DNA of 64,000 nucleotides, taken from the NCBI GenBank assembly GCA_965216685.1, contig OZ244195.1, positions 657,610-721,609 on the forward strand, in the 5' to 3' direction. How positions within the stretch are numbered: position 1 is the stretch's first letter; every line of letters starts with the position of its first letter. Both the position numbers and the translations under genes were made by a program. Of this stretch, positions 19,080-57,697 are shown in pieces. Origin of the DNA: Acidimicrobiales bacterium. GTDB taxonomy: Bacteria; Actinomycetota; Acidimicrobiia; Acidimicrobiales; SZUA-35. Below the pieces are notes generated by a model. That model was given only the letters and a program-made list of their open reading frames with translations, searched no databases and was not told the DNA's origin.

Positions 19080-20069
19080 ATGTCTCCCCGTAGCACCGTC
19101 ACCCATCGCACCGTCGAGTCCTCCGGCCACCGGATCCACTGCGTCGAGTCGATCGACAGCATGGGAACCGATCGACCGCTGGTGGTGATGATCCATGGGT
19201 TCCCCGAGAGCTGGTACTCGTGGCGGCATCAGATCCCGGCCTTGGCCGCGACCGGGTTCCGTCCCCTGGCCATCGATGTCCGGGGCTACGGCCGATCGTC
19301 GGCGCCTACCGAGGTGGAGGCCTACGCCATGACAGCGCTGGTGGGCGACGTTATGGCCGTGCTGGACGATGCTGGGGCCGCTCAGGCCGTGGTCGTGGGC
19401 CACGACTGGGGTGCCCCGGTGGCGTGGACCACCGCCCTGTGGCGGCCCGACCGGGTTCGAGGAGTGGCCGGCCTGTCGGTCCCCTACAACCCCCGTGGCG
19501 ACATCAAACCCCTCGACGGCTTCCGGGCCCTGGCCGGCGACGAGATCTTCTACGTCGACTACTTCCAGCAACCCGGAGTGGCCGAAGCCGAGGCCGAGGC
19601 CGATCTAGCCGCCTGGCTCCGGGGGTTCTACTTCACCGCCTCGGCCGAGTGCGATTTCTCCCAACCTTCGATGGGGTTCGTCACCCCCGGCGGCCAACTG
19701 CGGGATCGCCTGCAGCAACCCGACGACGGCCAGATGGCCTGGATGAGCGACGAGGACTTCGCCTTCTACCTGGGCGAATTCGAGCGGACCGGGCTGACCG
19801 GGGGGTTCAACCGGTACCGCAACATCACCCGGGACTGGTATGAACTGAGCGCCTGGCGCTTCGCCCCCATCACCGTGCCCGCGCTGTTCATCGGCGGAGA
19901 CCGCGACGGCCCGACCCGGTTGGGGGCCAAGGCCATCGAGAATCTGAGCCGGAACCTGCCCAACCTGGTCGGCAGCCATATCCTCGAGCGCTGCGGGCAC
20001 TGGGTTCAGCAGGAGCAGCCACAGGAGGTGAATCGCCTCCTGATCGACTTCATCAACGGGCTGAACTGA
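19080..20069 (+). CDS. epoxide hydrolase-like alpha/beta hydrolase
   Basis: [13 protein letters not shown] oxyanion motif and GHDWGA nucleophile motif. Confidence 0.85.
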
Positions 20070-23457: not shown

Positions 23458-23487
23458 GTCGTCAGCATACGCGGCTACCGTACGGCG

Positions 23488-24750: not shown

Positions 24751-24760
24751 AATCGGTCGG

Positions 24761-26050
24761 ATGTCAGCCGCCGAGTCAACGGACGCCCCATATTCCCATG
24801 GGGGTGGGCACTCCCACCAGATGGAGGGCGGGTGGGATGAGTGGATGTCGAACCCCGTTCTGCGGGCGCTGCTCAGCCTGCTTCTGGTCGCCGCCGTGAT
24901 CACCGCCATCGCCGTGGCCAATCTGTGGCCCGACGGTTCGGGGCGGACCGCAGTGCGGGCCGAGGCGGCCACGGTGGGTCTGGCGGCCGAGCGGATCGAG
25001 GCCGTGGTCGAGGAGGTGGTCGACGAGGAGTGCGACTTCTCGACCCAGGGCAATGAATGGGAGTGCCGAACGGTGGTGGTGACGCCGTCGGCCGGGCCCG
25101 ACGCCGGGTCACTGCTGATACTGCCCGAGTTCGTCAAGGACAGCGGCCCTCCGGTTCCCGACCTGTCCGTGGGCGACGACATCATGATCGACTACGAACC
25201 CAACACCGGGTTCTACTCCTACGGCGATCAGGACCGCCGCTCGGCGCTGCTGTGGTTGTTCATCACCTTCGCCGTGGTTGTGGTGGCGCTCGGCCGGTTG
25301 CGGGGTCTGCTGGCCCTGGCCGCCATGGCCACCACAGTGGCCGTGCTGGTGGGCTTCGTGGCTCCGTCGGTGCTGGACGGTAACGACCCGGTGGCGGTGT
25401 CAGTGGTGGCCGCCGCGGTCATCGCTTTCGTCAGCCTGTATCTGACCCACGGGGTCAACCCCACCACCACCGTGGCCTTGATCGGCACCTTGTTGGCGCT
25501 CCTGCTCACGCTGGTGCTGTCGAGTTTGTTCTTCGATCTGGCCCGGTTCACCGGCCTGGCCACCGAGGAGGGGATCCTGCTTCCGGTGCTGGCTCAGGAC
25601 ATCAACATGGCTTCGTTGCTTCTGGGCGGCGCCGTTATCGGGGCCCTGGGCGCATTGGACGACGTGACCGTGACCCAGGTGGCCACGGTGGCCGAGTTGC
25701 GGGCTCAGAATCCCCATCTGAGCCGCCGCCAGCTGTTCGCCTCCGGCATCCGAGTCGGCCGGGAACACATCGCGGCCACCGTGAACACGCTGCTGCTGGC
25801 CTACGCCGGTGTCAGCATGCCATTGTTGCTGCTCTTCGTGGTTTCCGACCTGTCCCTGGTCATGATCGCCAACTCCGAGATCGTGGCTGTGGAGATCGTG
25901 CGCACCCTTTGTGGCTCGCTCGGTCTGATCGCGGCGGTCCCCATCACCACCTGGCTGACCGCCGTTCTGGTCTCGGCCGGCGCCCCCAGCGATCGTCATC
26001 ACCACACCGAGGCCGCCCCACCAACAATTGCAGCAGAAAACGAGGGCTGA
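24761..26050 (+). CDS. YibE/F-like membrane protein
   Basis: N-terminal TM, extracytoplasmic domain, then about 7 TM. YibE/F-like organisation (recalled). The last 8 codons and stop lie in repeat copy 2. Confidence 0.7.
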   Translation: MSAAESTDAPYSHGGGHSHQMEGGWDEWMSNPVLRALLSLLLVAAVITAIAVANLWPDGSGRTAVRAEAATVGLAAERIEAVVEEVVDEECDFSTQGNEWECRTVVVTPSAGPDAGSLLILPEFVKDSGPPVPDLSVGDDIMIDYEPNTGFYSYGDQDRRSALLWLFITFAVVVVALGRLRGLLALAAMATTVAVLVGFVAPSVLDGNDPVAVSVVAAAVIAFVSLYLTHGVNPTTTVALIGTLLALLLTLVLSSLFFDLARFTGLATEEGILLPVLAQDINMASLLLGGAVIGALGALDDVTVTQVATVAELRAQNPHLSRRQLFASGIRVGREHIAATVNTLLLAYAGVSMPLLLLFVVSDLSLVMIANSEIVAVEIVRTLCGSLGLIAAVPITTWLTAVLVSAGAPSDRHHHTEAAPPTIAAENEG

Positions 26051-36015: not shown

Positions 36016-39000
36016 GTGACCTCTCCATCAAACGGTGACCTCGCCGATTCCCAGGGCCCGAACTCGTGGTTTGTACAGGAGCTGTACCAACAGTATCTCG
36101 ACAACCCCCGGTCGGTACCGACCGAGTGGCAGGAGATCTTCGCCCAGGGCCCGCCGGGAACCGTGGCCCCCAGCGCCCCGGCCGAGGGGCGCACCGTTCG
36201 GCTCGATGAGGTCACGCAAGCGGCTCCGGATCCGGCCCAGCCGGCGCCACCGGGCCCGAACACCCAGCCTCCGGCAAGTCCGCCTCCGGCCCCGACCCCC
36301 GATCCAACCCGATCGGCGCCCGAGCCGCCGTCGGTCTTCGAACCGTCACCGTCGGCCCTGTCGCAGGCCGAACCCGAGCCTGCGGCCGAGACGGCGGCCC
36401 CATCTCCTTCGGCCGAATCGGCCGCCCCTCCTACGGTCAACGGCGGACCACAACCGGCCGCGACCGACGACGGGGGCGAGGAATCCGAGGAGGAGCCCGC
36501 CAACGAGACGGTGCCGCTGCGAGGGGTGTCGGCCCTCATCGCCTCCAACATGGAGGCCAGCCTGGAGGTGCCGACGGCCACCAGCTTCCGCGAGGTTCCG
36601 GCCAAACTTCTCGAGGTCAACCGCCGAATCCTCAACAACCACCTGCGGCGGGTTCGGGGCGGCAAGGTCAGCTTCACCCACATCATCGGCTACGCCGTGG
36701 TCAGGGCGATACGAACCACCACGCCAAGCCTCAACAACACCTACCAGGTGAACGACGACGGCAAGCCCGAGCTGGTCCGCAACGGCCACGTGAACCTGGG
36801 GATCGCCGTCGATCTGCAGAAGGACGACGGTAGTCGCACCCTGATGGTGCCGGTCATCAAGGCGGCCGACACCCTCGATTTCTCCGAGTTCGTCGACGCC
36901 TACGAAGCGCTCATCGACAAGGTCCGCAACAGCAAGGTCACCGTCGACGACCTCACCGGGGCCACGGTCACGCTCACCAACCCCGGCACCATCGGCACCG
37001 TACAGTCGGTGCCCCGCCTCATGAAGGGGCAGGGCGCCATCATCGGTGTCGGCCGGATCGGCTATCCCACCGAATACCAGGCGGCCGATCCCAAGATGCT
37101 GGCCCATCTCGGCATCTCCAAGATCATCGCCCTGACCTCAACCTATGACCACCGCATCATCCAGGGCGCGGAGTCGGGCCTGTTCCTGAAGAAGGTTCAC
37201 GAGTTGCTGTTGGGAGAGGACGGCTTCTACGACCAGGCCTTTGCCGATGTCGGCGTCCCCTACGAAGCGGTCAAATGGCGCATCGACCACGGCGCCACTG
37301 ACGCCGAGGAGGGCGTGGGCGGCACGGTGGCCAAACAGCTGTCGGTCAACACCCTCATCAACCAGTACCGGGTACGAGGGCATCTGATCGCCAACACCAA
37401 TCCCCTGGCCGACAAGGCCAAGGAGATGCACACCGAACTCGATCCCGCCACCTACGGGCTGACCATCTGGGACCTCGACCGGGAATTCCTCACCGGCGCC
37501 ACCGACGGGATCTACGCCTCGATCGGCGGATTCGCCCAGATGATGAAACTGGGCGACATTCTCGGCGTACTACGCGACGCCTACTGCCGGGCCATCGGTG
37601 TTGAATACATGCACATCGCCGACCCCGACGAGAAGCGCTGGATCCAGGAACAGGTGGAGGGGCAACCGGTCAGTTTCGACCGGGAGGAGCAGACCCACAT
37701 CCTGGAACGACTGAGCGCGGCCGAAGCACTGGAGCAGTTCCTCCACACCCGCTACGTCGGCCAGAAACGGTTCGGCATCGAAGGCACGGAAAGCGCCATC
37801 CCCATTCTGGACGCCGTGCTGTCGAAGGCGGCCGATGACCACATGGAACGGGCCGTCATCGGTATGGCCCACCGGGGTCGGTTGAACGTTCTCGTCAACA
37901 TCATGGGCAAGCGGTACCAGGATCTCTTCACCGAGTTCGAAGGAGCCATCGACGAGAACGCCATCCAGGGTTCGGGTGATGTCAAGTACCACCTGGGCCA
38001 GGTGGGCAAGCACACCAGCCCTGACGGCAACCAGATCGGCATTGAGCTGGCGGCCAATCCCTCACACCTGGAGGCGGTGGATCCGGTGGTGGTGGGCATG
38101 GCTCGGGCCTACATGGATCAGAGCTCCTCCGGCAACTATCCGGTGCTGCCGATTCTCATCCACGGTGATGCCGCCTTCGCCGGCCAGGGAGTGGTCACCG
38201 AAACGCTCAACCTCTCCCAGGTTCGCGGTTACAAGGTCGGGGGCACGATTCACCTGATCGTCAACAACCAGCTCGGCTACACCACCGCTCCCCACCAGTC
38301 GCGCTCGTCGGAGTATTCAACCGACGTGGCCAAGACGGTTCAGGCCCCCATCTTCCACGTCAACGCCGACGATCCCGAGGCCTGTGTACGGGTGGCCCAG
38401 CTGGCCTTCGACTTCCGTCAACAGTTCAACAAGGACGTGGTCATCGACATGATCGGCTACCGCCGATTCGGTCACAACGAGGGCGACGATCCGAGCTACA
38501 CCCAGCCTCTGATGTACCGCAAGATCGCCGACCGACCGTCGGTGCGCACCCTCTACACCCAGGCTCTGATCGATCGGGGAGACCTGACCCAGACCGAGGC
38601 CGCCGAGGCGCTCGAGCATTTCGAGCAGATGCTGCAGACGGCTCTCGATCTCACCCGGGGATCGGTCAAGTCGGATCTGAAGGCCAAACCGGCACCGCCG
38701 GCCGAAGGTGTACTGCCCCACGTCGAAACGGGGGTGTCGGCCGAAACGATCCGGAACGTCTACCGCACCATCAGCACGATCCCCGAGAACTTCACCGTGC
38801 ATCCCAAGCTGTTGAGACAGCTCAACGCCCGCAACGACCTGTTCGAGTCGGGTCAGGTCGATTGGGCCATCGGCGAGGCGTTGGCCATCGGCACGCTACT
38901 GGCCGAAGGCACATCGGTCAGACTGGCCGGCCAGGACTCGCGGCGGGGCACCTTCGCCCACCGTCACGCCACCCTGCACGACTATCAGACCGGGGCCGAA

Positions 39001-39891
39001 TACACGCCGCTGACCGAGGTGGCTCCGGTCGGCACCGATTTCTGGGTGTACGACTCGACGCTGTCGGAATACGCCGGGCTCGGCTTCGAGTACGGCTATG
39101 CCGTGGCCAATCCTCATGCCCTGGTGATGTGGGAGGCCCAGTTCGGCGACTTCGTGAACGGGGCCCAGATCATCGTCGACCAGTTCCTGGTGGCGGCCGA
39201 GGACAAGTGGAACCAGACGGTGAACCTGGTCATGCTCCTCCCCCACGGCTATGAGGGTCAGGGCCCCGAGCATTCATCGGGTCGGCTGGAGCGGTTCCTC
39301 CTGCTGTGTGCCGACGACAACATCCAGGTGGCCAACGTGACCACGGCGGCCCAGCTGTTCCACCTCATTCGCCGCCAGATCGTGCGCACCAACTCCAAAC
39401 CGCTGGTGCTGTTCACCCCCAAGTCACTGCTCCGGGCCAAGACCACTCGCTCCCCGGTGGAGGCTCTGACCAGGGGTTCGTTCGAGGAGGTCCTCGATGA
39501 TTCCGGCGTGGTCGACCCCAAGACGGTGAGCCGGGTCATCTTCGCCAGCGGCAAGGTGGCGGTGGAGGCCCAAACCCACCGCGACGAACACGAGTTGCAG
39601 AACGTGGCCATCGTCCGCATGGAGCAGCTGTACCCGTGGCCGTTCAAGCGGGTGGCCCACACCCTGGAGCGTTACTTCAACGCCCGGGAGATCGTCTGGC
39701 TTCAGGAGGAGCCGGAGAACATGGGTGCGTGGAACGCCATCAAGGGTCGCCTCTACGAGGCTCACGGTGACACCCATCGGATCCGGCGGGTCAGCCGTCA
39801 TGAGTCGGGCAGCCCGGCCACCGGTTCGGTTGCCATTCATCGGCAGGAACAAGCCGAGCTCCTCGACCGGGCCTTCGGCGGTCTCGGCTAG
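36016..39891 (+). CDS. kgd: multifunctional 2-oxoglutarate decarboxylase/dehydrogenase E1 with E2-like acyltransferase domain
   Basis: 1291 aa. Pro/Ala linker, E2 catalytic block TYDHRIIQGA, then the ThDP-dependent E1 body. GTG start. Confidence 0.95.
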   Translation: MTSPSNGDLADSQGPNSWFVQELYQQYLDNPRSVPTEWQEIFAQGPPGTVAPSAPAEGRTVRLDEVTQAAPDPAQPAPPGPNTQPPASPPPAPTPDPTRSAPEPPSVFEPSPSALSQAEPEPAAETAAPSPSAESAAPPTVNGGPQPAATDDGGEESEEEPANETVPLRGVSALIASNMEASLEVPTATSFREVPAKLLEVNRRILNNHLRRVRGGKVSFTHIIGYAVVRAIRTTTPSLNNTYQVNDDGKPELVRNGHVNLGIAVDLQKDDGSRTLMVPVIKAADTLDFSEFVDAYEALIDKVRNSKVTVDDLTGATVTLTNPGTIGTVQSVPRLMKGQGAIIGVGRIGYPTEYQAADPKMLAHLGISKIIALTSTYDHRIIQGAESGLFLKKVHELLLGEDGFYDQAFADVGVPYEAVKWRIDHGATDAEEGVGGTVAKQLSVNTLINQYRVRGHLIANTNPLADKAKEMHTELDPATYGLTIWDLDREFLTGATDGIYASIGGFAQMMKLGDILGVLRDAYCRAIGVEYMHIADPDEKRWIQEQVEGQPVSFDREEQTHILERLSAAEALEQFLHTRYVGQKRFGIEGTESAIPILDAVLSKAADDHMERAVIGMAHRGRLNVLVNIMGKRYQDLFTEFEGAIDENAIQGSGDVKYHLGQVGKHTSPDGNQIGIELAANPSHLEAVDPVVVGMARAYMDQSSSGNYPVLPILIHGDAAFAGQGVVTETLNLSQVRGYKVGGTIHLIVNNQLGYTTAPHQSRSSEYSTDVAKTVQAPIFHVNADDPEACVRVAQLAFDFRQQFNKDVVIDMIGYRRFGHNEGDDPSYTQPLMYRKIADRPSVRTLYTQALIDRGDLTQTEAAEALEHFEQMLQTALDLTRGSVKSDLKAKPAPPAEGVLPHVETGVSAETIRNVYRTISTIPENFTVHPKLLRQLNARNDLFESGQVDWAIGEALAIGTLLAEGTSVRLAGQDSRRGTFAHRHATLHDYQTGAEYTPLTEVAPVGTDFWVYDSTLSEYAGLGFEYGYAVANPHALVMWEAQFGDFVNGAQIIVDQFLVAAEDKWNQTVNLVMLLPHGYEGQGPEHSSGRLERFLLLCADDNIQVANVTTAAQLFHLIRRQIVRTNSKPLVLFTPKSLLRAKTTRSPVEALTRGSFEEVLDDSGVVDPKTVSRVIFASGKVAVEAQTHRDEHELQNVAIVRMEQLYPWPFKRVAHTLERYFNAREIVWLQEEPENMGAWNAIKGRLYEAHGDTHRIRRVSRHESGSPATGSVAIHRQEQAELLDRAFGGLG

Positions 39892-42454: not shown

Positions 42455-42540
42455 GGCGGCACAGCGTGGCGGGCTGAGGCTTCACCGGCCCGGACCGCGA
42501 AGCCAACCGAGATCGAAGGGGCGACGGTAGCCTCAGCACC

Positions 42541-44235
<1,695 letters not shown>

Positions 44236-48063: not shown

Positions 48064-48723
48064 GTGCGCCTTGTCATCGCCGAATGCACCGTCGACTACG
48101 CCGGTCGCCTCACCGCTCACCTTCCCCGGGCCACCCGCCTGATCATGGTCAAGGCCGACGGCTGCGTCTCGGTCCATGCCGACGGCGGGGCCTACAAACC
48201 GATGAACTGGATGACGGCCCCCAACACGGTGCGGGAGGCCGACGACGAGTGGGTGGTGACCAACCCCAAGGGCGAGACCCTAACCATCACCATCCACCAG
48301 ATGATCAGCGACGTGTCACACGAACTGGGCAACGATCCGGGCCTGCAGAAGGATGGAGTCGAAGCTCATCTGCAAGAGCTGTTGGCCACCGATCCGGGCC
48401 GCCTCGGCCCCGGCATGCGGTTGATCCGCCGAGAGTTTCCGACCGAAATCGGCCCGGTCGACCTGTTGTGCCGCAACGCCGATGACGAGGTGGTGGCGGT
48501 CGAGATCAAGCGGCGGGGTGAGATCGACGGGGTTGAGCAGTTGACCCGCTACCTCGACTTCCTCAACCGCCAGCCCGACCTGTCGCCGGTCAGAGGCATG
48601 TTCGTGGCCCAGGAGATCAAGCTGCAGGCCAAAACTCTGGCCAGCGACCGCGACATCGACTTCCTGGAGGTCGATTACGACGAACTTCGGGGCATCGAGC
48701 GGCCCCAGCAGAAGCTCTTCTGA
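48064..48723 (+). CDS. nucS: endonuclease NucS (EndoMS)
   Basis: GTG start. [16 protein letters not shown]... and the C-terminal [20 protein letters not shown] nuclease block. Confidence 0.9.
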
Positions 48724-49736: not shown

Positions 49737-50663
49737 TCAAAACGGCGTCGGCCGACCGGGGCCGGTGACCGGTTGTCCCGACATGTCGCTGTTGGGCTGG
49801 GCCTCGGCCATCAACTTCTTCACCGCCGGGCCGATGGCGACCGGGTCGTCGACCGGTTCGACGGCCGGTCCCCGGTGCCACATGTTGGCTACGGCCAGAA
49901 CCCGACCGCTGGCCTCGAACACCCGGCCGGTCACCGGAGCCGACTCACTGCTGGCCAGCCAGGTGGCGATGGGGGCGATCCAGCGAGGATGCATCTGCTC
50001 CCGCTCCTCGTCACTACCCTGCCCCATCCCCAGGTTCTCGGTCATGCGGGTCAGGGCGGCCGGGGCAATGGCGTTGACCGTCACCCCGTAGCGGTGGAGT
50101 TCCTGGGCGGCGATGATGGTGAAGGCGGCGATCCCGGCCTTGGCCGCCCCGTAGTTGGTCTGACCCGGGTTGCCGTAGATGCCCGACACCGAGCTGGTGT
50201 TGATGATGCGGGCGTCGTTGGATTCACCGGCTTTGGCCCGTTCCCGCCAGTAGGCGGCGGCATGACGGGCGGGGGCGAACGTACCCTTCAGGTGGACCTG
50301 GATCACGGCGTCCCACTCGGCCTCAGTCATGTTGGTCAGCATGCGATCCCGCAGAATGCCGGCATTGTTGATGACGACGTCGATGCCCCCGAAGTGGTCG
50401 ATGGCGGTGTCGATGAGATTCTTGGCCCCGGCGAAGTCGGACACGTCGTCACCGTTGACCACGGCCTCGCCCCCCGATTCGGTTATCTCCGCCACCACCT
50501 GCTGGGCCGGGCTGAGATCGTCACCGGTTCCGTCGACATCGCCCCCCAGATCGTTCACCACCACCTTCGCCCCGTGGTGGGCCAGCATCAGCGCATGCTC
50601 CCGGCCGATGCCCCGCCCCGCGCCGGTCACGACGGCGATTCGCCCCTCACACAGCTTTGTCAT
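49737..50663 (-). CDS. SDR-family oxidoreductase (MFE-2-like 3-hydroxyacyl-CoA dehydrogenase type)
   Basis: TGAGRGIG, NNAGI, YGAAK. Confidence 0.85.
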   Translation of the reverse strand: MTKLCEGRIAVVTGAGRGIGREHALMLAHHGAKVVVNDLGGDVDGTGDDLSPAQQVVAEITESGGEAVVNGDDVSDFAGAKNLIDTAIDHFGGIDVVINNAGILRDRMLTNMTEAEWDAVIQVHLKGTFAPARHAAAYWRERAKAGESNDARIINTSSVSGIYGNPGQTNYGAAKAGIAAFTIIAAQELHRYGVTVNAIAPAALTRMTENLGMGQGSDEEREQMHPRWIAPIATWLASSESAPVTGRVFEASGRVLAVANMWHRGPAVEPVDDPVAIGPAVKKLMAEAQPNSDMSGQPVTGPGRPTPF

Positions 50664-50788
50664 CTCTCACCTCGTTGCTCATGTCGAAGGGCAGTGCCCT
50701 ACGGTGGCCGCAATCGGGCAAACCCGTTGACGATGATGTCACATTGCCACTGTCGTTCCAAAGTTCCCGTACCGTCACAGTGTGGACG

Positions 50789-53152
50789 ATGACCGCCAAC
50801 CCGGCATTCGACGTGGCAGAATGGACTCCGGTGACTACTGAAGGTGACGGTGACCAGACAGGATCCATCGATCAGTCGGGCGTTCAGGCCGACTCGGTCG
50901 AAGCTCTGCTGGCCGAGCTTCTGGGCTCCGATGTCAATCCACCGGTTGACGCCACCGACCAGGTCGATCAGTCCGCCGGCGATGCCGGCCCGATCGACCT
51001 GAACGACGTCATCATCGGGAGCGAAGATCCAACGATGGTGTTCCCCTCGACCGGTACCCCGGCCGAGGAGGAGTCGGCCGAGGCGGTCGACAAACCGGCT
51101 TTCGACCGGGGCGAGGTTGGTCTCGACGGCGACGTGGTCGACGAGACGGCGGTCCTCCATACGGCCGGCCCCGAACCCACCGTTGTGGCGCCCATGCCGG
51201 TGGCGCCGCCGGTCGATCGGGCCGCACCACCCGACCGGCCGCCGGCCGAGCCGAGGCGATCCAGGGGCTCGGGCCCCGGACGATTGCTGAAGTTGGGCGC
51301 GCTGGCCCTACTTGGTCTGTGCCTGCTCCTGGTGGCGGCCTGGGCCGTCGATCTGGCCCGTCATCAGGACACGGTGATGCGGGGGATTGAATTGGCGGGA
51401 ACGTCGCTCGAAGGTATGAGCCGAGCCGATCTGGACGAGCTGCTCGACGAGCAACGGGATGAGCTGGCGGCCACGCCGCTCGACGTGGTGGTGGGGGAAA
51501 CGACGATAACCACCGATCCGGTCACCATGGGCATGGCCTTCGACCGCGACGCCATGGTCGACGACGCCATGGGTGTGGGACGTACCGGATTCTTTCCCAC
51601 CCGACCGTTGACCTGGGTCGGATCACTGTTCAGCAGCCAGGAACTTGAACCCCGCTATGCCATCGATGCCGACGCCACCACCGAGGCGGCCCAAGCCGTC
51701 GTCGCCAGCCTGCTCGATCAGCCGGTGGAGCCGGAGCTGATTCTCGACGGCAGCGACCAATTCACCGTGCTGCCGGGTGAGAGTGGCATCACGTTCAGCT
51801 CCCGGGAACTGGTGGGACTGCTCCCATCGGTTGTCGAGGCCGGGCCGCCCTATGAGGTCGAGCTGCAGGCCATCGTGGCCCAGCCCGAGATCGATCAGTC
51901 CGATCTGGAAGCGGTGGCCGCCGAGATCAACGATCTGACGGCCGAACCGGTCCGGATTCAGGTTCTCGACGACTTCGCCGACGTCGAACCGGCCATGTTG
52001 AAGTCATGGGCCGACGCCGAAACCGAGGGCGAGGTGACCTGGTCATTCGAGCCGTCACGAGTGCTGGCCGATCTCCGCCCCCTTTTCCCGACACTGGGTT
52101 CGGAGGATCAGCGGGCCCGATTCACCGTGGTCGATCAGGAGCCGGTGATCGTCCCGGCCTCGGAGACGGTGGTCTGCTGTGACGAGGATTCGGTCAACCG
52201 CCTGCTGTCGGGTCTCCAGGCTCCGATCCCGGTGGCCGACGACGACGAGGACGACAGCGAATCATCCGAAGACGATGAGGCTCCGGCCCGCACGATCGTT
52301 CTGGAGCCCTCCATCGTCGGGGCCGACGAGGGGGTGGCCGAGCTTGAGACCCTGGGCATCGTGGAGGAGGTCAGCACTTTCACCACCAATCACGCCTGCT
52401 GCCAGCCCCGGGTCAAGAACATCCAGCGGTTCGCCGACCTGATGCAGGGTGTCATCATCCGGCCGGGCGAGTCGTTCTCCCTCAACGATCACGTCGGCCG
52501 TCGTACCATCGAGAAGGGCTTCGTGGCCGACGGGGCCATCAACCTCGGGGTTCTGGAGCCACAGGTCGGTGGCGGCATCAGCCAGTACGCAACCACCTTC
52601 TTCAACGCCTCGTTCTTCGCCGGACTGGAGTTCCTGGAATACCAGTCGCACTCGCTGTACATCTCCCGCTATCCCCGGGGTCGTGAAGCCACCATCTCAT
52701 GGCGCCGACCCGATCTCGAGGTTCGCAACAACACACCGTACGGAATCCTGGTCTGGAACGAGTACACCTCGACCTCGATCACGGTGAGCTTCTACTCGAC
52801 CAAACACCTCGAGGTCGAGGCGCTGCCGCTGCAACGTTCATCGGAGCGTCAGTGTCGGGTCGACATCACCCCCCGTTTGATCACCTATCCCGACGGTACA
52901 ACGGCCGAAGACAGCGTCTACGCCGTCTACCGGCCCGGTGAAGGCCTCGACTGTGCCGGCAACTCGACTCGACCAGAGCTCGAGCCCGAAGCCCCCACCG
53001 CCACCGAGCCCCAGCCGGAACCCGAGCCGGAGCCAGAACCAGAACCCGAGCCGGAGCCCGAGCCTGAGCCGGAGCCGGCCGATCCCGATGATGATCCGGC
53101 GGCAGCCGTCAACACCACTCAGGAGGCCACAGGCGACGACGGGGGTGGTTAG
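50789..53152 (+). CDS. VanW-domain cell-envelope protein with N-terminal TM anchor and C-terminal (EP)n tail
   Basis: VanW block RPGESFSLND...GGGISQYATTFFNA. TM LGALALLGLCLLLVAAWAV. Start is ATG 50789 or GTG 50780. Confidence 0.75.
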   Translation: MTANPAFDVAEWTPVTTEGDGDQTGSIDQSGVQADSVEALLAELLGSDVNPPVDATDQVDQSAGDAGPIDLNDVIIGSEDPTMVFPSTGTPAEEESAEAVDKPAFDRGEVGLDGDVVDETAVLHTAGPEPTVVAPMPVAPPVDRAAPPDRPPAEPRRSRGSGPGRLLKLGALALLGLCLLLVAAWAVDLARHQDTVMRGIELAGTSLEGMSRADLDELLDEQRDELAATPLDVVVGETTITTDPVTMGMAFDRDAMVDDAMGVGRTGFFPTRPLTWVGSLFSSQELEPRYAIDADATTEAAQAVVASLLDQPVEPELILDGSDQFTVLPGESGITFSSRELVGLLPSVVEAGPPYEVELQAIVAQPEIDQSDLEAVAAEINDLTAEPVRIQVLDDFADVEPAMLKSWADAETEGEVTWSFEPSRVLADLRPLFPTLGSEDQRARFTVVDQEPVIVPASETVVCCDEDSVNRLLSGLQAPIPVADDDEDDSESSEDDEAPARTIVLEPSIVGADEGVAELETLGIVEEVSTFTTNHACCQPRVKNIQRFADLMQGVIIRPGESFSLNDHVGRRTIEKGFVADGAINLGVLEPQVGGGISQYATTFFNASFFAGLEFLEYQSHSLYISRYPRGREATISWRRPDLEVRNNTPYGILVWNEYTSTSITVSFYSTKHLEVEALPLQRSSERQCRVDITPRLITYPDGTTAEDSVYAVYRPGEGLDCAGNSTRPELEPEAPTATEPQPEPEPEPEPEPEPEPEPEPEPADPDDDPAAAVNTTQEATGDDGGG
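53006..53077 (+). repeat. GAGCCN hexanucleotide repeat encoding (EP)12
   Basis: gag ccc cag ccg gaa ccc gag ccg gag cca ... read directly. Confidence 0.85.
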
Positions 53153-53224: not shown

Positions 53225-54493
53225 GTGGATCAGCATTATGAACCTGTCCGCAAGACCGACATTGTGGTGGTTGGAGCAGGACCAGCGGGCACTGCGGCAG
53301 CCATCGAGGCGGTACGTTCCGGACTCGACGTCGTCGTCATAGACAAGGCAACCTTTCCCCGCTCCAAATGCTGCGGGGACGGTCTGACCACCAGCGCCCT
53401 CCGCCAACTGGAGGATCTCGGTTTCGATCCCGCTTCGGTTCCCAGCTGGACCCGGGTCGACGATGTCGTCATCACGAGCCCGGCCGGGCGCCGGCGAACC
53501 TATCCCCTGCCTCGGGCCGACGGCGTCTTCGCCGCCGTGGCCCGGCGATCCGAGCTCGACCATCAGCTGGTGCTACTGGCCCGCCGGGCCGGAGCGGAAG
53601 TGCTGGAGAACCATGAACTGGTCGACCTCGACCAGGACCAGTCGTCGGTGACGCTGCGGGTCCAGCACGACGATCGCACCTGCAACATCCGCACCCGGTT
53701 CGTGGTGGCGGCCGATGGTATGTGGTCACGCACCCGCAAGCTGGCCGGGGTGGCACCAGCCGGCTATCGGGGCGACTGGCACGCCTTTCGCCAATACTTC
53801 AAAGGAGTGTCGACCTTCGCCCAGGACAAATTGATCGTCTGGTTCGAACCCGACCTCCTGCCGGGCTATGCCTGGTCCTTCCCCCTGGCCGACGGGCGGG
53901 CCAATGTAGGGTTCGGCATCATCCGAGCCGAAGGGGGAAAGCGGATCCAGAACATGAAGTCGTTGTGGTCCGCTCTGCTGGAACGACCCCACATCCGATC
54001 CCAGTTGGGGTCAAAGGCGGAACCGGAGGAGCCTCATCGAGCGTGGCCGATCCCGGCCCGTCTCGGCCAACTTCCGCTGGCCCTGGGCCGGGTGTTGTTC
54101 ACCGGAGACGCCGCCGCCGTGACCGATCCCATGAGCGGGGAGGGCATCGGCCAGGCCCTGGAGAGTGGCCGGATGGCCGTGGGGGCCATCGTCGGCGAGG
54201 GCATCGACCATCCCACCGCGGTACGCGACCGCTATCAGAAAACCCTGTCCCGCAGCATCGGTCGGGATCACCGCTTGGCCCAATCACTTTCCCGACTGCT
54301 GGCCACGCCATGGATCACCGAGGCGGCACTGACCGCCACCGGCGCCACCGCCTGGACCCGGGAAAACTTTGCCCGCTGGCTGTTCGAGGACTACCCCCGG
54401 GCCACCCTGATCAACCCTCGCCGCTGGCCGGAGAAGCCGCTGGGTCAACCTGCCCCCTTCGCTTGTCTGGATTCGTCGAACTCCCCAACCTAG
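53225..54493 (+). CDS. FAD-dependent oxidoreductase, geranylgeranyl reductase family
   Basis: VVVGAGPAGTAAA dinucleotide-binding motif, KCCGDGL, FTGDAAAVTDPMSGEGI. Confidence 0.8.
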   Translation: MDQHYEPVRKTDIVVVGAGPAGTAAAIEAVRSGLDVVVIDKATFPRSKCCGDGLTTSALRQLEDLGFDPASVPSWTRVDDVVITSPAGRRRTYPLPRADGVFAAVARRSELDHQLVLLARRAGAEVLENHELVDLDQDQSSVTLRVQHDDRTCNIRTRFVVAADGMWSRTRKLAGVAPAGYRGDWHAFRQYFKGVSTFAQDKLIVWFEPDLLPGYAWSFPLADGRANVGFGIIRAEGGKRIQNMKSLWSALLERPHIRSQLGSKAEPEEPHRAWPIPARLGQLPLALGRVLFTGDAAAVTDPMSGEGIGQALESGRMAVGAIVGEGIDHPTAVRDRYQKTLSRSIGRDHRLAQSLSRLLATPWITEAALTATGATAWTRENFARWLFEDYPRATLINPRRWPEKPLGQPAPFACLDSSNSPT

Positions 54494-54503
54494 AGTTTTG
54501 CTC

Positions 54504-55511
54504 ATGGCCTCAGCATCTGCACGCGAACTTCGCTCCGGATCATCCGAGCTGCCACCGGCCGACTACATCGAGGAGACGCGCCGGCTGTATGCCACCCTTG
54601 GCTACGACGACTACCGTTGGGCCGAGCGACCTGAACGCCCGGCCTGGAGCCCAATCGACAAGCCATTGCGGTCAGCCACCGTCGCCATCGTCGGATCCGG
54701 AGGTGTCTACCGGCGAGGCCAGATCGCCTTCCACACCAAGGACGACACGTCGATCCGGGTCATCGACGTCGATACACCGGCTGAGGAACTGCGGGTGTCA
54801 CACTTCGCATACGATCAAACCGACGCCCGGTCCGACCCCAACTGCGTGTTCCCACTGGAACGGCTGCGGGAACTGGTGGAGCAGGGTGTGGTCGGCGGCA
54901 TCAGTCCCCTCCACTTCGGTTTCATGGGAGGAATCTACTCGACCCGACGCCTGCTGGCCGAGACGGCGGAGTTGCTGAGCGACCAGCTCAAGCGGATGCA
55001 CGATGGCGGCCAACTTGATGTCGTGCTACTGGTACCGGTTTGACCGGTCTGCCACCAGTCGGTCGGTCTGATCGCACGACAAATCGAGGACAGCGGCATC
55101 CCCACGATCTCCTTGACATCGGCCCGAAGCATCACCGAGCGGGCCAACCCGCCTCGCTCCGTCTTCATCGACCTGCCCCTGGGTCACACGGCCGGAGCCC
55201 CCAACGACCCGGTGGGCCAACGGCAGCTCCTCACCGACGCTCTGGTGGCCGGATTTGCCATGACCGAACCGGGCCAGATCGTCGATCTGCCGTTCCGTTG
55301 GATCGACGACAAGTGGAAGTCGGCACCGCTCTCGTGGAGCCGGAAGGCGCAGGAACAGGGAGTCACCGACGTCTCGGCCGGCGACACCAGAACGGCCCGA
55401 GACCCGAATCCGCATTATCACGACGACGCCGATCGGGCGGCGGCCGAGGCGGTGGCCTGGGATGAACAGTGCCAGGTCTGCCTGGGTCTGCCCGATCAGG
55501 GCGCCGGCTGA
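54504..55511 (+). CDS. GrdB (glycine/sarcosine/betaine/proline reductase selenoprotein B) family protein with in-frame TGA 55041-55043: candidate Sec codon, or a nonsense-disrupted gene
   Basis: ORFs 54498..55043 and 55113..55511 share a frame with no other stop between them. Read-through gives LLVPV-U-PVCHQSVGLIARQIEDSGIPT. Confidence 0.6.
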
Positions 55512-57697
55512 GTCCACCTTTCCGACCGGTCCTGAACGAACTCGATCAGTTCGTCCTCGGCCATTGGCTTGGCCAGGAGGGGTCCCTGGGCAACATGGCA
55601 TCCCAGCGAACGGAGCACCGAGAGGGTGGCCTGATCGGCGACGCCGTCGGCCACCACTGTTCGGTCCAGCAACTTCGACAGCTCGATCAGAGCCCGGGCG
55701 AAGAGTAGATTATCCGAGTGGTCGTTCAGCTCGGCCACGAACTTGGGACCGAGTTTGACCTCGGTGATCGGCAGCTCCCGAACCATCGTCGGCGACGAAC
55801 AGGGGGCGGCCAGCTCTTCGGCCGCCACCCCGAGACCGTGATCGACGATCTGGCGCAGGACCCGCACCTGATCGGTATGGCTGCCCAGCGCCGCTATGTC
55901 GGTCAGCCGAAGGGTGAACCTCGAGGGATGAATGTCGTGACCGCGAAGGACGTCGAGGGCATAGGGCAGCCAGTCGTCGGCCAGGAGGCAGCCGGCCGGT
56001 AGCGGCACCGACATTCGCACCGGGAGGCCGACCTGCTCCAGCCGCTGGGCGGCCCGAACGGCCGAGGTCAGCACGAAGCGACCGTAGCGCACCAGCTCGC
56101 CTGCCAGCTCCAACAACTCAACGAAGTGCGTCGGTTTGAGGATCCCCTGTTCGGCGTGGTGCCACCGGGGCTCACCTTCGACACCGACCAGTGCGCCGGT
56201 CTCCAGGTCGAATCGGCCATGGAACCAGACGGCGAACGACTCGTCATCCAGGGCGGAGCCGACTTCCGCCCCCAGGAGCAAGCGGTCGAAGGTCAGACGC
56301 CCGGGGTCCTCGTGATAGATGACGAACGTTCTGTCCGACCGCTTCGACTCGTACATGGCGATGTCGGCGCAACGGATGGCTTCCTCGGTCGTCTTGGCCT
56401 GCTCCGGCAGTAGGACGATTCCAATCGACGGTGTGACCACCAGGCTCACCCCGTCGATATCGATCTTTCGCTGGAATATCCGGTGGATGCGACGAGCCAG
56501 ATCAGCGGCCGCTCCCCTTTCCGAGACACCATTGGCGAGGACGGCGAACTCATCGCCGCCAAGGCGGGCCACGACCGACGCGTCGGACAACTCCTCGACC
56601 AGGCGGGCGGCCAGCGCCTGCAGCAAACGATCGCCGGCCGGATGACCGAAGGTGTCATTGACCTCCTTGAATCGGTTGAGGTCGAGCAACAGCAGTATCG
56701 ACCCGACTCCGCCGGTGGATCCGGCCAGGGTGCGATCAAGCTGACGGAGCAGGACCATCCGATTGCTCAGTCCTGTCAGGTGATCGCGTTCGGCTTGGTG
56801 CCGGATGAGTTCGGTGGCTTCGGCCAACTCCGAAATGTCGGCCGAAACCCCGTGTACCAGACCGCTGCGGGAGTCGCGCTCCACCGAGTGGCGGAACACC
56901 CGGGTCAGCCCGTCCCGTCCGATGACGGTCGTGGTCACCTGCCGGCGGCCTGCCCCGTAGTCCAGTCGGGCCACTTCGGCCACGTCCTTGGTGGCCACGA
57001 AGTCGGTCCACCGCATGCCGACCAGCTCGGACGGCTGGTAGCCCAACAACTCCTCGCAGTTGCCGACAACGGTCACGAACGTCCGGGTTTCGACATCGAC
57101 CTCCCAGAAGAAGACCTCGGAAGCCTGGATGAGCGCCTGATAGCGCTCGGCCGAAACCTCCCACATCTTCCGACGATCGCGGAAGTAGAGATCGAAAGCC
57201 GGAAACAACAGGCTCATGACCAGGGGTATGACGAACCAGTCAGCAGCACCATCCAGGAAGGCCAGGCTTCCGGCAACGCCCACTCCCACCACGGCCAGGA
57301 CCGCCAGCAGCGATCGCCGCTGAACCGGTATGGCCACCACCACAATGGCGGTGATGGCCACCGCAGCCACGGCAAAGGCATCGGGTATGAGCAGGCAGCA
57401 GGCCCCGGTGACGAGGATGTCGCTCAGCGAATTGGCGAAATCGGCGCTGTGACCTCCGAAGCGGCGGTAGATGAGAAAACCCGACAGCGGAACGTAAAGG
57501 GCGGCCACCGATGCTACATAGAGGCGAGCCTGAATGGTCAGATCGAGGGGCAGGACAACTACCACCGCCCCGAAGAAGATGCCGATCATGGTCCGGAACT
57601 GTGTCAGTCTGGAATCGGTGTGGGAGAACCCCAGCACGGTGTGACCGAGCCGATTCAGGCGATCGGTTCGCACCACGCTGGGATCGAGGCGGTCCAT
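55496..57697 (-). CDS. membrane-anchored PAS-GGDEF-EAL signalling protein (EAL domain apparently degenerate)
   Basis: N-terminal about 6 TM. RLGGDEFAVL is intact. The EAL region reads VEGEPRW with several catalytic positions substituted. Confidence 0.85.
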   Translation of the reverse strand: MDRLDPSVVRTDRLNRLGHTVLGFSHTDSRLTQFRTMIGIFFGAVVVVLPLDLTIQARLYVASVAALYVPLSGFLIYRRFGGHSADFANSLSDILVTGACCLLIPDAFAVAAVAITAIVVVAIPVQRRSLLAVLAVVGVGVAGSLAFLDGAADWFVIPLVMSLLFPAFDLYFRDRRKMWEVSAERYQALIQASEVFFWEVDVETRTFVTVVGNCEELLGYQPSELVGMRWTDFVATKDVAEVARLDYGAGRRQVTTTVIGRDGLTRVFRHSVERDSRSGLVHGVSADISELAEATELIRHQAERDHLTGLSNRMVLLRQLDRTLAGSTGGVGSILLLLDLNRFKEVNDTFGHPAGDRLLQALAARLVEELSDASVVARLGGDEFAVLANGVSERGAAADLARRIHRIFQRKIDIDGVSLVVTPSIGIVLLPEQAKTTEEAIRCADIAMYESKRSDRTFVIYHEDPGRLTFDRLLLGAEVGSALDDESFAVWFHGRFDLETGALVGVEGEPRWHHAEQGILKPTHFVELLELAGELVRYGRFVLTSAVRAAQRLEQVGLPVRMSVPLPAGCLLADDWLPYALDVLRGHDIHPSRFTLRLTDIAALGSHTDQVRVLRQIVDHGLGVAAEELAAPCSSPTMVRELPITEVKLGPKFVAELNDHSDNLLFARALIELSKLLDRTVVADGVADQATLSVLRSLGCHVAQGPLLAKPMAEDELIEFVQDRSERWTQPAP

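What the first reader, a model, noticed from the sequence alone, without database searches (positions are those of the whole stretch)
54504..55511. Single in-frame TGA joins two ORFs into one GrdB-family protein with a U-x-x-C motif: candidate selenoprotein
ORFs 54498..55043 and 55113..55511 are in the same frame. I read the 69 nt between them codon by codon (ccg gtc tgc cac cag tcg gtc ggt ctg atc ... tcc ttg) and found no second stop, so one TGA (55041-55043) is the only interruption. Read-through gives ...DVVLLVPV-U-PVCHQSVGLIARQIEDSGIPTISLTSARSITERANPPRSVFIDLPLGHTAGAPND... This is one continuous domain resembling the glycine/sarcosine/betaine/D-proline reductase selenoprotein B (GRDB) family. 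In that family, as I recall it, a redox Sec or Cys sits at exactly this type of position, three residues before a Cys. Neither half looks like a complete protein. The gene starts 10 nt after an FAD-dependent geranylgeranyl-reductase-like oxidoreductase (53225..54493), so the pair may be a two-gene redox module. A possible hairpin pairs 55042-55049 with 55061-55068 (8 bp including 2 G-U, 11-nt loop), but I cannot score it as a SECIS. Standard gene callers would report two fragments or a pseudogene.
Basis: partly seen in the sequence, partly recalled or inferred. Interest (0 to 1): 0.8.

Follow-up and report, generated by a model that had tools for sequence, protein, structure and literature searches.

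The report
PrdB-like selenoprotein gene split by UGA
The two "fragments" are one gene for a selenocysteine-containing redox protein of the PrdB/GRDB family, a selenoprotein family catalogued in ocean metagenomes since 2005, so this is a real but largely expected case that gene callers mis-annotate.

Summary
One in-frame TGA (55041-55043) interrupts a 335-codon frame (54504-55511). The selenoprotein reading is strongly supported:
- All 84 orthologous loci examined, from at least four phyla, carry TGA at this codon, followed by a conserved C-terminal half.
- 44 of 45 full-length homologs have Cys there (CPVCHQ).
- The 23 codons after the UGA are the most protein-constrained part of the gene and contain no restart codon.
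- TGA is otherwise the commonest stop codon in the window.

Synonymous sites just downstream are under RNA-level constraint (Gln+5 CAG 80/80, Leu+9 CUG 78/80). The SECIS fold is unresolved.

The protein is PrdB-like but not D-proline reductase: it scores below the PrdB equivalog cut-off and no PrdA was seen nearby. The FAD-reductase "module" is only lineage synteny. Sec-type proteins carry a C-terminal CxxC that is absent from Cys-type homologs. The Sec machinery could not be checked.

The family (pfam07355, UxxC) is a known abundant marine selenoprotein family, so this is a new member of a known kind.

The parts
54504..55511 (+). Complete selenoprotein gene: 335 codons including Sec180, with the stop TGA at 55509-55511. 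PrdB-like member of the GRDB (PF07355) family.
   Evidence: single open frame. Pfam GRDB 28.3 bits (cut-off 22). NCBIfam TIGR04483 PrdB 160.8 bits over residues 45-267, i.e. across the TGA.
55041..55043 (+). UGA codon read as selenocysteine (Sec180).
   Evidence: TGA in 84/84 orthologous loci. Cys in 44/45 full-length homologs (Thr in one); the 23 codons after it have entropy 0.41/0.25/1.19 at codon positions 1/2/3 and no in-frame start codon.
55041..55052 (+). U-P-V-C redox motif (Sec180...Cys183), followed by invariant His184-Gln185.
   Evidence: UPVCHQ in all Sec-type loci. C183, H184 and Q185 are invariant in 39 aligned sequences.
55050..55076 (+). Hairpin A, the family-wide SECIS candidate. 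Pairs 55050-52 with 55074-76 and 55054-61 with 55065-72; core CAG 55056-58 with CUG 55068-70; apical loop G-G-U-C-G 55061-65, about +21 to +25 from the U of UGA. In the window it carries two mismatches (C55055.A55071 and U55059.U55067).
   Evidence: Gln+5 CAG 80/80 and Leu+9 CUG 78/80 are the two lowest codon entropies of 84 conserved columns. RNAalifold picks this register.: -12.6 kcal/mol on average in other phyla, but only -4.8 in the window.
55042..55068 (+). It includes the G and A of the UGA and is mutually exclusive with hairpin A.
   Evidence: -8.0 kcal/mol in the window; mean -5.4 in Acidimicrobiales and +2.8 in other phyla; coupled synonymous sites 55055 and 55067 place the window (C, U) in the state that favours B.
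55470..55481 (+). C-terminal C-Q-V-C motif (Cys323...Cys326), a second conserved redox-type motif specific to the Sec-type clade.
   Evidence: CxxC in the tail of 72/81 Sec-type proteins across phyla; 0/45 Cys-type homologs have it.
53225..54493 (+). Upstream FAD-dependent geranylgeranyl-reductase-family gene. It is a neighbour by lineage synteny and is not shown to be a functional partner.
   Evidence: TIGR02032 201.6 bits (cut-off 158.8); within 10 kb in 38/61 Acidimicrobiales loci, directly adjacent in 14, and in 0/19 loci of other phyla.

Best explanation
Bases 54504-55511 are one gene for a 335-residue selenoprotein of the GRDB/PrdB-like family in an Acidimicrobiales (Actinomycetota) chromosome. 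UGA 55041-55043 is decoded as selenocysteine.

Shown:
- The UGA, and translation beyond it, are conserved across many species and phyla.
- Homologs have Cys at this position.
- The mRNA just downstream carries RNA-level constraints that overlap the coding sequence.

Inferred:
- SelB with Sec-tRNA(Sec) is recruited by a SECIS formed from the first ~35 nt after the UGA. The conserved CAG/CUG-cored hairpin A puts a G/U-containing apical loop about 21-25 nt from the UGA.
- In this lineage hairpin A competes with hairpin B, a UGA-proximal hairpin that must melt when the ribosome reaches the UGA.
- The protein works as a selenol/thiol oxidoreductase. As in PrdB/GrdB, Sec180 is the attacking nucleophile and Cys183 resolves it to a selenenylsulfide.
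- The clade-specific C-terminal Cys323-x-x-Cys326 tail probably relays reducing equivalents from a thioredoxin-like donor.

The protein is not D-proline reductase. No pyruvoyl subunit PrdA was seen nearby, and gene context across the wider family points to acyl-CoA metabolism. The substrate is unknown.
For: - One continuous domain: the PrdB profile spans the TGA (residues 45-267).
- Truncated gene calls: close relatives end at ...LLVPV, while full-length relatives have CPVCHQ.
- TGA conservation: TGA in 84/84 loci followed by 131-170 in-frame codons. One search places the loci in Acidimicrobiales, Acidobacteriota, Binatia/'delta proteobacteria' and Chloroflexota.
- Translation past the UGA: protein-level purifying selection immediately after the UGA and no restart codon before 55113.
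- No codon reassignment: TGA is the stop codon of 29 of 51 window ORFs.
- RNA-level constraint: the CAG/CUG codon entropies are the lowest in the gene, Gly+8 is never GGC, Ala+11 prefers GCA, and hairpin codons differ from the rest (Mann-Whitney p = 0.017); the CAG/CUG pair occurs in only 1 of 6 Cys-type genes.
- Two hairpin states: hairpin energetics and coupled synonymous sites.
- C-terminal CxxC: specific to the Sec-type clade.
- Context: a CoA-transferase gene is adjacent in 4 of 4 contexts sampled from the 40-45%-identity Cys-type branch; a convergent gene immediately downstream recurs in 34 Sec-type loci; where Pfam context is available it is an enoyl-CoA hydratase.
- Literature: PMC1088965 and PMC2398784 list 'Proline reductase PrdB, pfam07355, UxxC' as an abundant marine selenoprotein family; a preprint reports selA, selB, selC and selD in another Acidimicrobiia order. 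PMC11229817 describes the role of Sec151 in genuine PrdB.
Against: - No selA, selB, selD or tRNA-Sec in the window or in 1.5 Mb of related loci, so the machinery is unverified for this genome.
- No Rfam match, and the local fold is not more stable than shuffles.
- Neither hairpin shows significant base-pair covariation.
- In the window hairpin A is weak (-4.8 kcal/mol) and has about zero predicted probability in the exposed mRNA.
- The protein is below the NCBIfam cut-offs for PrdB (160.8 vs 300) and for the selenoprotein-B subfamily (38 vs 65.45).
- The substrate and the role of the C-terminal CxxC are inferred only.
Confidence: 0.88

Rival explanations
1. The TGA is a sequencing or assembly error or a recent inactivating mutation, so the locus is a pseudogene or really carries TGC/TGT.
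For: A single-base change from TGC/TGT gives TGA. Public gene calls report fragments.
Against: TGA occurs at the identical codon in 84/84 independently assembled loci from several phyla. The downstream half is under purifying selection.
Confidence: 0.01
2. Translation really stops at the UGA, and a second protein is made separately from the TTG at 55113, giving two polypeptides that might assemble.
For: ORFs 54498-55043 and 55113-55511 both exist. Gene callers annotate a small downstream ORF in relatives.
Against: The 23 codons between the UGA and 55113 (PVCHQSVGLIARQIEDSGIPTIS) are the most conserved peptide of the gene. They show a coding-type substitution pattern and contain no in-frame start. 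They include the invariant C183-H184-Q185. The PrdB profile runs uninterrupted across the site.
Confidence: 0.03
3. The UGA is read through, but not as selenocysteine: for example near-cognate Trp or Cys insertion, or Cys inserted by a Sec-like route in a genome without full Sec machinery.
For: The Sec machinery was not found in the sequence available. SECIS evidence is structural-constraint evidence rather than a scored model.
Against: The position is a catalytic Cys in homologs and Sec in genuine PrdB. The family is a recognised selenoprotein family. RNA constraints sit exactly where a bacterial SECIS lies. TGA is a normal stop elsewhere in the window. Sec machinery is reported in related Acidimicrobiia.
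Confidence: 0.05
4. It is the PrdB subunit of a genuine D-proline reductase (Stickland-type), as some database names suggest.
For: The best NCBIfam hit is TIGR04483 PrdB. Some JGI homologs are named 'D-proline reductase (dithiol) PrdB'. The UxxC motif is the same, with Sec at about the same profile position as U151 of C. difficile PrdB.
Against: The score of 160.8 is far below the equivalog cut-off of 300. No PrdA, PrdC or other prd-operon protein family appears among the annotated neighbours, and no conserved partner of any kind is seen across 80 loci. The protein has extra N- and C-terminal extensions with a CxxC tail. The hosts are Acidimicrobiales and other lineages not known as Stickland fermenters (the physiology is my own knowledge).
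Confidence: 0.03

Closest known systems
'Proline reductase PrdB' environmental selenoprotein family (pfam07355, UxxC) of Zhang, Fomenko & Gladyshev 2005 (PMC1088965) and Zhang & Gladyshev 2008 (PMC2398784)
   Same: Same Pfam family and same U-x-x-C Sec motif. Sec forms predominate over Cys forms (235 Sec vs 110 Cys in GOS). It is an environmental or uncultured-bacterial gene that annotation truncates at the UGA.
   Different: Those surveys used short reads and lumped everything as PrdB. They did not, in the text I could read, report host lineage (here Acidimicrobiales plus Acidobacteriota, Binatia and Chloroflexota), the absence of PrdA, the C-terminal CxxC tail, or the SECIS-region codon constraints. 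I could not check sequence identity with their entries.
D-proline reductase subunit PrdB of Clostridium sticklandii / Clostridioides difficile (TIGR04483; Kabisch 1999; PMC11229817)
   Same: Homologous over essentially the whole ~240-residue PrdB profile. Sec lies in a UxxC motif at about the equivalent position (U151 in C. difficile). The presumed chemistry is nucleophilic selenol plus resolving Cys.
   Different: Genuine PrdB is ~26 kDa, is encoded in a prd operon with PrdA, and works with the pyruvoyl protein PrdA, the maturase PrdH and the electron carrier PrdC. Here the score is half the equivalog cut-off, none of those partners was seen nearby, the protein has a 45-residue N-terminal and ~70-residue C-terminal extension with CxxC, and the hosts are different.
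Glycine/sarcosine/betaine reductase selenoprotein B (GrdB, GrdF, GrdH; TIGR01917, TIGR01918, NF040794, NF040795)
   Same: Same Pfam GRDB superfamily, with Sec at the start of a U-x-x-C motif in the C-terminal half of the domain.
   Different: Only weak matches (36-41 bits against cut-offs of 65-800). GrdB has U-x-x-C-x-x-C, whereas here the motif is U-P-V-C-H-Q-S. GrdB proteins are ~430 residues and work with GrdA and GrdE; neither is seen here.
Cys-type paralogous/orthologous branch of the same family (e.g. P0015, P0020, P0035, P0047; 40-47% identity)
   Same: Same length class and fold (AlphaFold model pLDDT 93.6). Identical CPVCHQ active-site peptide with Cys in place of Sec.
   Different: No C-terminal CxxC (0/45). 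The gene is adjacent to, and in three cases overlaps, a family-III CoA-transferase gene (4/4 sampled). The SECIS-like codon constraints are absent in the six genes examined.

Membership tests
Bacterial selenoprotein gene (UGA decoded as Sec) | In-frame UGA conserved among orthologs, with coding sequence continuing downstream | tested here: met
   TGA in 84/84 loci. Downstream codons show protein-level purifying selection, and there is no restart codon for 23 codons.
Bacterial selenoprotein gene (UGA decoded as Sec) | Cys-containing homologs with Cys aligned to the UGA | tested here: met
   Cys in 44/45 full-length homologs (CPVCHQ); one has Thr.
Bacterial selenoprotein gene (UGA decoded as Sec) | SECIS: a stable stem-loop immediately downstream of the UGA, with a small apical loop containing G (criteria as stated in PMC1088965) | tested here: inconclusive
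   RNA-level constraint is clear, and hairpin A fits the criteria family-wide: loop GUN or GGUCG at about +21 to +25. In the window, however, hairpin A is weak (-4.8 kcal/mol) and competes with hairpin B (-8.0). There is no significant pair covariation, no Rfam model hit, and bSECISearch was not available.
Bacterial selenoprotein gene (UGA decoded as Sec) | Genome encodes selA, selB, selC (tRNA-Sec) and selD | not testable with these tools
   None found in the 64-kb window or in 1.5 Mb of related loci. The rest of the genome is not available. A preprint reports the machinery in Actinomarinales, another Acidimicrobiia order.
Bacterial selenoprotein gene (UGA decoded as Sec) | Selenium demonstrably incorporated in the protein | not testable with these tools
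   Requires 75Se labelling or mass spectrometry.
Pfam GRDB (PF07355) | Score at or above the Pfam gathering threshold | tested here: met
   28.3 bits against a cut-off of 22 (E = 1.4e-6). Most database homologs carry precomputed PF07355.
D-proline reductase PrdB (NCBIfam TIGR04483 equivalog) | Score at or above the equivalog cut-off (300 bits) | tested here: not met
   160.8 bits, although the alignment covers profile positions 17-235 of 238.
D-proline reductase PrdB (NCBIfam TIGR04483 equivalog) | Encoded with the pyruvoyl proprotein PrdA (and PrdC and other prd-operon genes) | tested here: not met
   no such Pfam family among annotated neighbours in the window or in L001, L002 and L005; no conserved partner across 80 loci. 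A distant location in the genome cannot be excluded.
D-proline reductase PrdB (NCBIfam TIGR04483 equivalog) | Sec in a U-x-x-C motif at the catalytic position | tested here: met
   U-P-V-C. Residue 180 maps to about profile position 150-152, compared with U151 in C. difficile PrdB. This is an approximate mapping from alignment ends, not a residue-level alignment.
Glycine/betaine/sarcosine/D-proline reductase selenoprotein B subfamily (TIGR01918) / GrdB | Score at or above the subfamily cut-off (65.45 bits) | tested here: not met
   38.0 bits.
Glycine/betaine/sarcosine/D-proline reductase selenoprotein B subfamily (TIGR01918) / GrdB | U-x-x-C-x-x-C motif of GrdB (as described in PMC13188914) | tested here: not met
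   the motif is U-P-V-C-H-Q-S, with no third Cys.
'Proline reductase PrdB' marine selenoprotein family (Zhang et al. 2005/2008) | pfam07355 domain with a Sec-containing UxxC motif and Cys homologs | tested here: met
   Direct sequence comparison with their AACY/JCVI entries was not possible.

The most novel reading that the evidence does not exclude
The Sec-type clade may be a free-standing selenoenzyme that needs no pyruvoyl partner. It would act on a CoA-activated or otherwise activated carboxylic acid, using Sec180/Cys183 plus a clade-specific C-terminal CxxC tail as an internal redox relay. Its UGA decoding would be governed by a bistable SECIS region in which lineages switch, through coupled synonymous changes, between a UGA-proximal hairpin and a canonical downstream hairpin. 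That would give a biochemical handle on one of the most abundant environmental selenoprotein families whose function has never been determined, and a new kind of SECIS architecture.
Probability: 0.25. Interest if true: 0.65.

Novelty: new member of a known kind. Interest (0 to 1): 0.38.

Why it matters
- Annotation: the gene is systematically mis-annotated. Public protein sets contain 185-200-residue stubs and orphan ~140-150-residue ORFs for dozens of species, so selenoproteome and metabolic inventories of Acidimicrobiales and other soil, sediment and marine lineages miss it.
- Biology: the family has been listed since 2005 among the most abundant marine selenoproteins under the name 'proline reductase PrdB'. 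The data here show that this clade lacks the PrdB equivalog score and any PrdA partner nearby, so the name is probably wrong and the function is open.
- Leads: the clade-specific CxxC tail, the CoA-transferase coupling in the Cys-type branch, and the coupled synonymous sites in the SECIS region are concrete starting points for experiments.
- Novelty: the existence of a Sec codon in this family is not new.

Tried and rejected
- Rfam gathering-threshold scan of the window: no hits. This is not informative, because bacterial SECIS elements are poorly represented in Rfam.
- Single-sequence fold of 55030-55110: z = 0.25, not distinguishable from shuffles.
- Pair-covariation counts for both hairpins: neither exceeds shuffles because the columns are too conserved. 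RNAalifold gives only -3.07 kcal/mol.
- My first energy comparison ('A better in 78/82') was inflated, because non-canonical pairs were scored as pairs. It is superseded.
- Mutual-information scan for covarying columns: dominated by the deep clade split and uninformative.
- tRNA-Sec search in 83 loci plus the window: none.
This is weak negative evidence only.
- Pfam scan of the 30 largest window ORFs: no SelA, SelB or SelD.
- The source contig of the window is not on record.
- A crude scan for other TGA-interrupted coding frames gave one hit, at 42475. It lies in the spacer upstream of the ABC-F gene and has no redox motif, so I treat it as spurious. The same scan failed to recover the 55041 TGA itself, so it says nothing about other selenoprotein genes.
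- The 'two-gene redox module' with the FAD reductase is rejected as a general feature.
Full report
OBSERVATION. The frame from 54498 (ATG at 54504) to the stop at 55509-55511 is open except for one TGA at 55041-55043. The 69 nt between the two listed ORFs contain no further stop. Read-through gives ...LLVPV-U-PVCHQSVGLIAR.... The upstream ORF 53225-54493 ends 10 nt before the ATG and passes the NCBIfam cut-off for the geranylgeranyl-reductase family (TIGR02032: 201.6 bits, cut-off 158.8).

FAMILY. With Cys substituted for the stop, the 335-residue protein matches Pfam GRDB (PF07355) above threshold (28.3 bits, cut-off 22). It matches the NCBIfam D-proline reductase PrdB model over residues 45-267, corresponding to profile positions 17-235 of 238 (160.8 bits). 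The match runs straight across the TGA, so the two ORFs are halves of one domain. The score is well below the PrdB equivalog cut-off (300), and the hits to GrdB, GrdF, GrdH and the 'various selenoprotein B' subfamily are all below their cut-offs. The protein is PrdB-like but does not qualify as PrdB or GrdB.

SEC/CYS EVIDENCE. A search of 5.8 billion proteins returned two classes of relative. The closest ones (60-82% identity) are only 185-200 residues long and cover half the query. More distant ones (29-47% identity) are full length. In alignment, 11 of the 12 short relatives sampled end exactly at ...LLVPV, the residue before the window's TGA; the twelfth, P0058, diverges earlier. The full-length proteins carry C-P-V-C-H-Q there. 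In a 45-sequence set of full-length homologs, the position is Cys in 44 and Thr in 1. Cys183, His184 and Gln185 are invariant.

TGA CONSERVATION. DNA for four of the truncated relatives shows TGA followed by 155-162 in-frame codons beginning PVCHQSVGL. A scan of one genome per GTDB species found 211 relatives. In the 80 best loci the codon is TGA every time, making 84 of 84 with the window and the earlier loci. The hosts are mostly Acidimicrobiales/Acidimicrobiia MAGs. Acidobacteriota (Holophagales, Thermoanaerobaculia), Binatia/'delta proteobacteria'/Multivoraceae and a Chloroflexota MAG are also represented. This excludes sequencing error and a pseudogene.

THE UGA IS TRANSLATED. Across 80 distinct genes, the 23 codons between the UGA and the first possible restart codon (TTG 55113) have mean column entropies of 0.41, 0.25 and 1.19 at codon positions 1, 2 and 3. 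That makes this stretch the most protein-constrained part of the gene. The window has no in-frame ATG, GTG or TTG there, so this peptide can only be made by decoding the UGA. TGA is also the most used ordinary stop codon in the window (29 of 51 ORFs), so the recoding is site-specific and not a genome-wide reassignment.

RNA-LEVEL CONSTRAINT. I compared synonymous codon usage at 84 amino-acid columns that are at least 95% conserved.
- The two lowest relative entropies in the whole gene are Gln+5 (CAG 80/80) and Leu+9 (CUG 78, UUG 2).
- Other Leu columns have relative entropies of 0.56-0.81, and the other two Gln columns 0.67 and 0.93.
- Gly+8 never uses GGC, which is the preferred codon at the ten other conserved Gly columns.
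- Ala+11 prefers GCA, which is rare elsewhere.
- Codons +4 to +11 differ from the rest of the gene (0.47 vs 0.72; Mann-Whitney p = 0.017).
- In six Cys-type genes, residue +9 is not even fixed as Leu, and CAG and CUG occur together only once (small sample).
An RNA element therefore overlaps these codons specifically in the Sec-type genes.

WHICH HAIRPIN. Two mutually exclusive hairpins can form.
- Hairpin A (window 55050-55076) has the complementary CAG/CUG codons as its core and an apical loop GUN or GGUCG about 21-25 nt from the U of UGA. This fits the published description of bacterial SECIS elements: a stem-loop immediately downstream of the UGA with a small apical loop containing G (PMC1088965). 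From my own knowledge, it also fits the spacing of the E. coli fdhF element.
It includes the G and A of the UGA.
Pair counting gives 81% paired cells for A and 86% for B, and neither beats shuffles because the columns barely vary. RNAalifold, run without a prior structure, chooses the register of A, but weakly.

My first energy comparison scored non-canonical pairs as pairs and was misleading. With canonical pairs only:

| Set | Hairpin A (kcal/mol) | Hairpin B (kcal/mol) | A better in |
|---|---|---|---|
| Window | -4.8 | -8.0 | - |
| Acidimicrobiales-like (n = 64, mean) | -6.8 | -5.4 | 25 of 64 |
| Other phyla (n = 18, mean) | -12.6 | +2.8 | 18 of 18 |

When only the mRNA from +12 onward is folded, the A core has probability above 0.5 in 33 of 81 sequences and about zero in the window.

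COUPLED SYNONYMOUS SITES. The third positions of His+4 (window 55055) and Gly+8 (window 55067) co-vary strongly:
- CAC with GGU: 40 sequences
- CAU with GGA/GGG: 30
- CAU with GGU: 9
- CAC with GGR: 3
Fisher p = 3e-11 overall and 2e-7 within Acidimicrobiales. On a rough UPGMA tree, His3 changed at least 16 times and Gly3 at least 8 times. In all 5 nearest-neighbour pairs where Gly3 differs, His3 differs too. So this is not one ancestral split, although a proper phylogenetic test was not run.

The pattern fits a two-state reading. U plus A completes hairpin A and breaks B. C plus U weakens A twice and completes B. The combination that serves neither hairpin is rare. The window (C, U) is in the B state. 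The invariance of CAG/CUG in both states is explained only by A. B must also be unwound when the UGA reaches the ribosomal A site (inference from general knowledge of the ribosome footprint).

I therefore regard the presence of a SECIS-type RNA element as well supported and its exact fold in this lineage as unresolved.

SEC MACHINERY. No tRNA genes and no Rfam families are found in the window. None of the 30 largest window ORFs is SelA, SelB or SelD. No tRNA-Sec lies near any of 83 related loci. The window's contig is not on record in the collection. This requirement therefore remains untested for this genome. A 2026 preprint reports selA, selB, selC and selD in all 84 complete genomes of Actinomarinales, another order of Acidimicrobiia.

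CONTEXT AND FUNCTION.
- The FAD/geranylgeranyl-reductase-like gene lies within 10 kb in 38 of 61 Acidimicrobiales loci. It is directly adjacent in only 14, mostly the window's closest relatives. It is absent from all 19 loci of other phyla. It behaves like the other syntenic neighbours (SDR, MaoC dehydratase, SnoaL, PAP2, NucS, ABC1), so a dedicated two-gene module is not supported.
- No PrdA, PrdC or GrdA family appears in any annotated neighbourhood.
- The only recurrent cross-phylum neighbour of the Sec-type gene is a convergent ~270-residue gene immediately downstream (34 loci, 5 from other phyla). The Pfam context of L001 and L002 identifies it as an enoyl-CoA hydratase.
- In the Cys-type branch at 40-45% identity, all four contexts sampled have an adjacent same-strand family-III CoA-transferase gene. 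Three overlap the start of the homolog by 4-8 nt.
- A more distant homolog sits among three enoyl-CoA hydratases and an SDR, and another has no such neighbours.
This suggests, but does not show, a link to acyl-CoA metabolism.

EXTRA REDOX MOTIF. A C-terminal CxxC is present in 72 of 81 Sec-type proteins and in 0 of 45 Cys-type homologs. It appears as CQVC at residues 323-326 in the window, QCxVCLGL in Acidimicrobiales, CPTCVFL in Acidobacteriota and ECIVCSNW in Binatia. It is a plausible relay for re-reducing the Sec180-Cys183 selenenylsulfide; this is inference.

STRUCTURE. An AlphaFold model of a 47%-identical Cys-type homolog is confident (pLDDT 93.6, pTM 0.92). It has no significant Foldseek match in the PDB (best TM about 0.30), and the sequence has no PDB relative. 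The fold has no experimental template in the PDB copy searched.

COMPARISON WITH WHAT IS KNOWN. 'Proline reductase PrdB' with a UxxC motif and pfam07355 was the third most abundant selenoprotein family in the Sargasso Sea (42 sequences; PMC1088965). It had 235 Sec and 110 Cys members in GOS (PMC2398784). Reviews from 2022 and 2026 list D-proline reductase (TIGR04483, UxxC) and GrdB (PF07355) as established selenoproteins. In genuine Prd, Sec151 of the 26-kDa PrdB attacks the alpha-carbon of D-proline bound to the pyruvoyl group of PrdA. PrdH and PrdC are also required, and U151C is inactive (PMC11229817). The window's gene shares the domain, the motif and the approximate Sec position. It fails the equivalog score and has no PrdA partner nearby.

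VERDICT. It belongs to a selenoprotein family known for two decades, so it is a new member of a known kind and only moderately interesting. Four things appear not to be described in the papers I could read: the clade-specific CxxC tail, the lack of a PrdA partner, the CoA-transferase coupling of the Cys-type branch, and the coupled synonymous sites that suggest two alternative SECIS-region folds.

Noticed in passing
window 55055 and 55067 (A3 columns 21 and 33), and the same positions in L001-L085: Two synonymous third-codon positions 12 nt apart (His+4 and Gly+8) co-vary: CAC+GGU 40, CAU+GGR 30, CAU+GGU 9, CAC+GGR 3, with repeated independent switches on a rough tree. This is consistent with lineages toggling between two mutually exclusive hairpins after the UGA.
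   Followed up: partly
L086 4880-6903, L088 4779-6903, L091 3784-5891, L092 5001-8423: Cys-type homologs of the selenoprotein are adjacent to a family-III CoA-transferase (PF02515) gene on the same strand in 4 of 4 contexts sampled. Three overlap it by 4-8 nt.
   Followed up: partly
window 55470-55481 and the C-termini of L001-L085: A C-terminal CxxC tail is present in 72/81 Sec-type proteins and 0/45 Cys-type homologs. L008 has the first Cys replaced by Arg (QRQVCLG), and a sub-clade (L055, L058, L060, L062, L064, L065) lacks the tail altogether.
   Followed up: partly
protein P0007 (347 aa, from a 77-kb ENA contig): One full-length homolog has Thr instead of Cys/Sec at the catalytic position (TPVCHQ).
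   Followed up: no
window 55496-57697 (- strand): A PAS-GGDEF-EAL (c-di-GMP turnover) gene converges on the selenoprotein gene, and their 3' ends overlap by 16 nt. In most related loci this position is occupied by a convergent enoyl-CoA hydratase gene instead.
   Followed up: partly
window 50657-53152 (+): An 831-residue protein with VanW and PG_binding_4 domains and a proline-rich C-terminal tail lies upstream of the FAD reductase. It is syntenic in 32 Acidimicrobiales loci.
   Followed up: no
window 22222-25185 (-): A 987-residue protein in which only the last ~300 residues match acyl-CoA dehydrogenase domains. The ~690-residue N-terminal part has no Pfam match at E <= 1e-5.
   Followed up: no
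window 18195-19571 (-) and 1002-1967 (+): Two sizeable ORFs (458 and 321 residues, high GC3) with no Pfam family at E <= 1e-5.
   Followed up: no
window 36016-39891 (+) and 48064-48723 (+): A fused 2-oxoglutarate dehydrogenase E1/E2-type protein (1291 residues) and the endonuclease NucS. Both are typical of Actinomycetota chromosomes, which fits the Acidimicrobiales assignment.
   Followed up: no
protein P0058 (187 aa, from a 293-kb ENA contig): This close relative diverges from the family consensus about 60 residues before the Sec position and ends differently. That looks like a frameshift in that assembly rather than a real variant.
   Followed up: no
window 42475-42477 (+): A crude scan for TGA codons flanked by open, high-GC3 frame flagged this site just upstream of the ABC-F gene (42541-44235). 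There is no redox motif around it and it lies in the intergenic spacer, so it is probably spurious. The same scan did not recover the 55041 TGA.
   Followed up: partly
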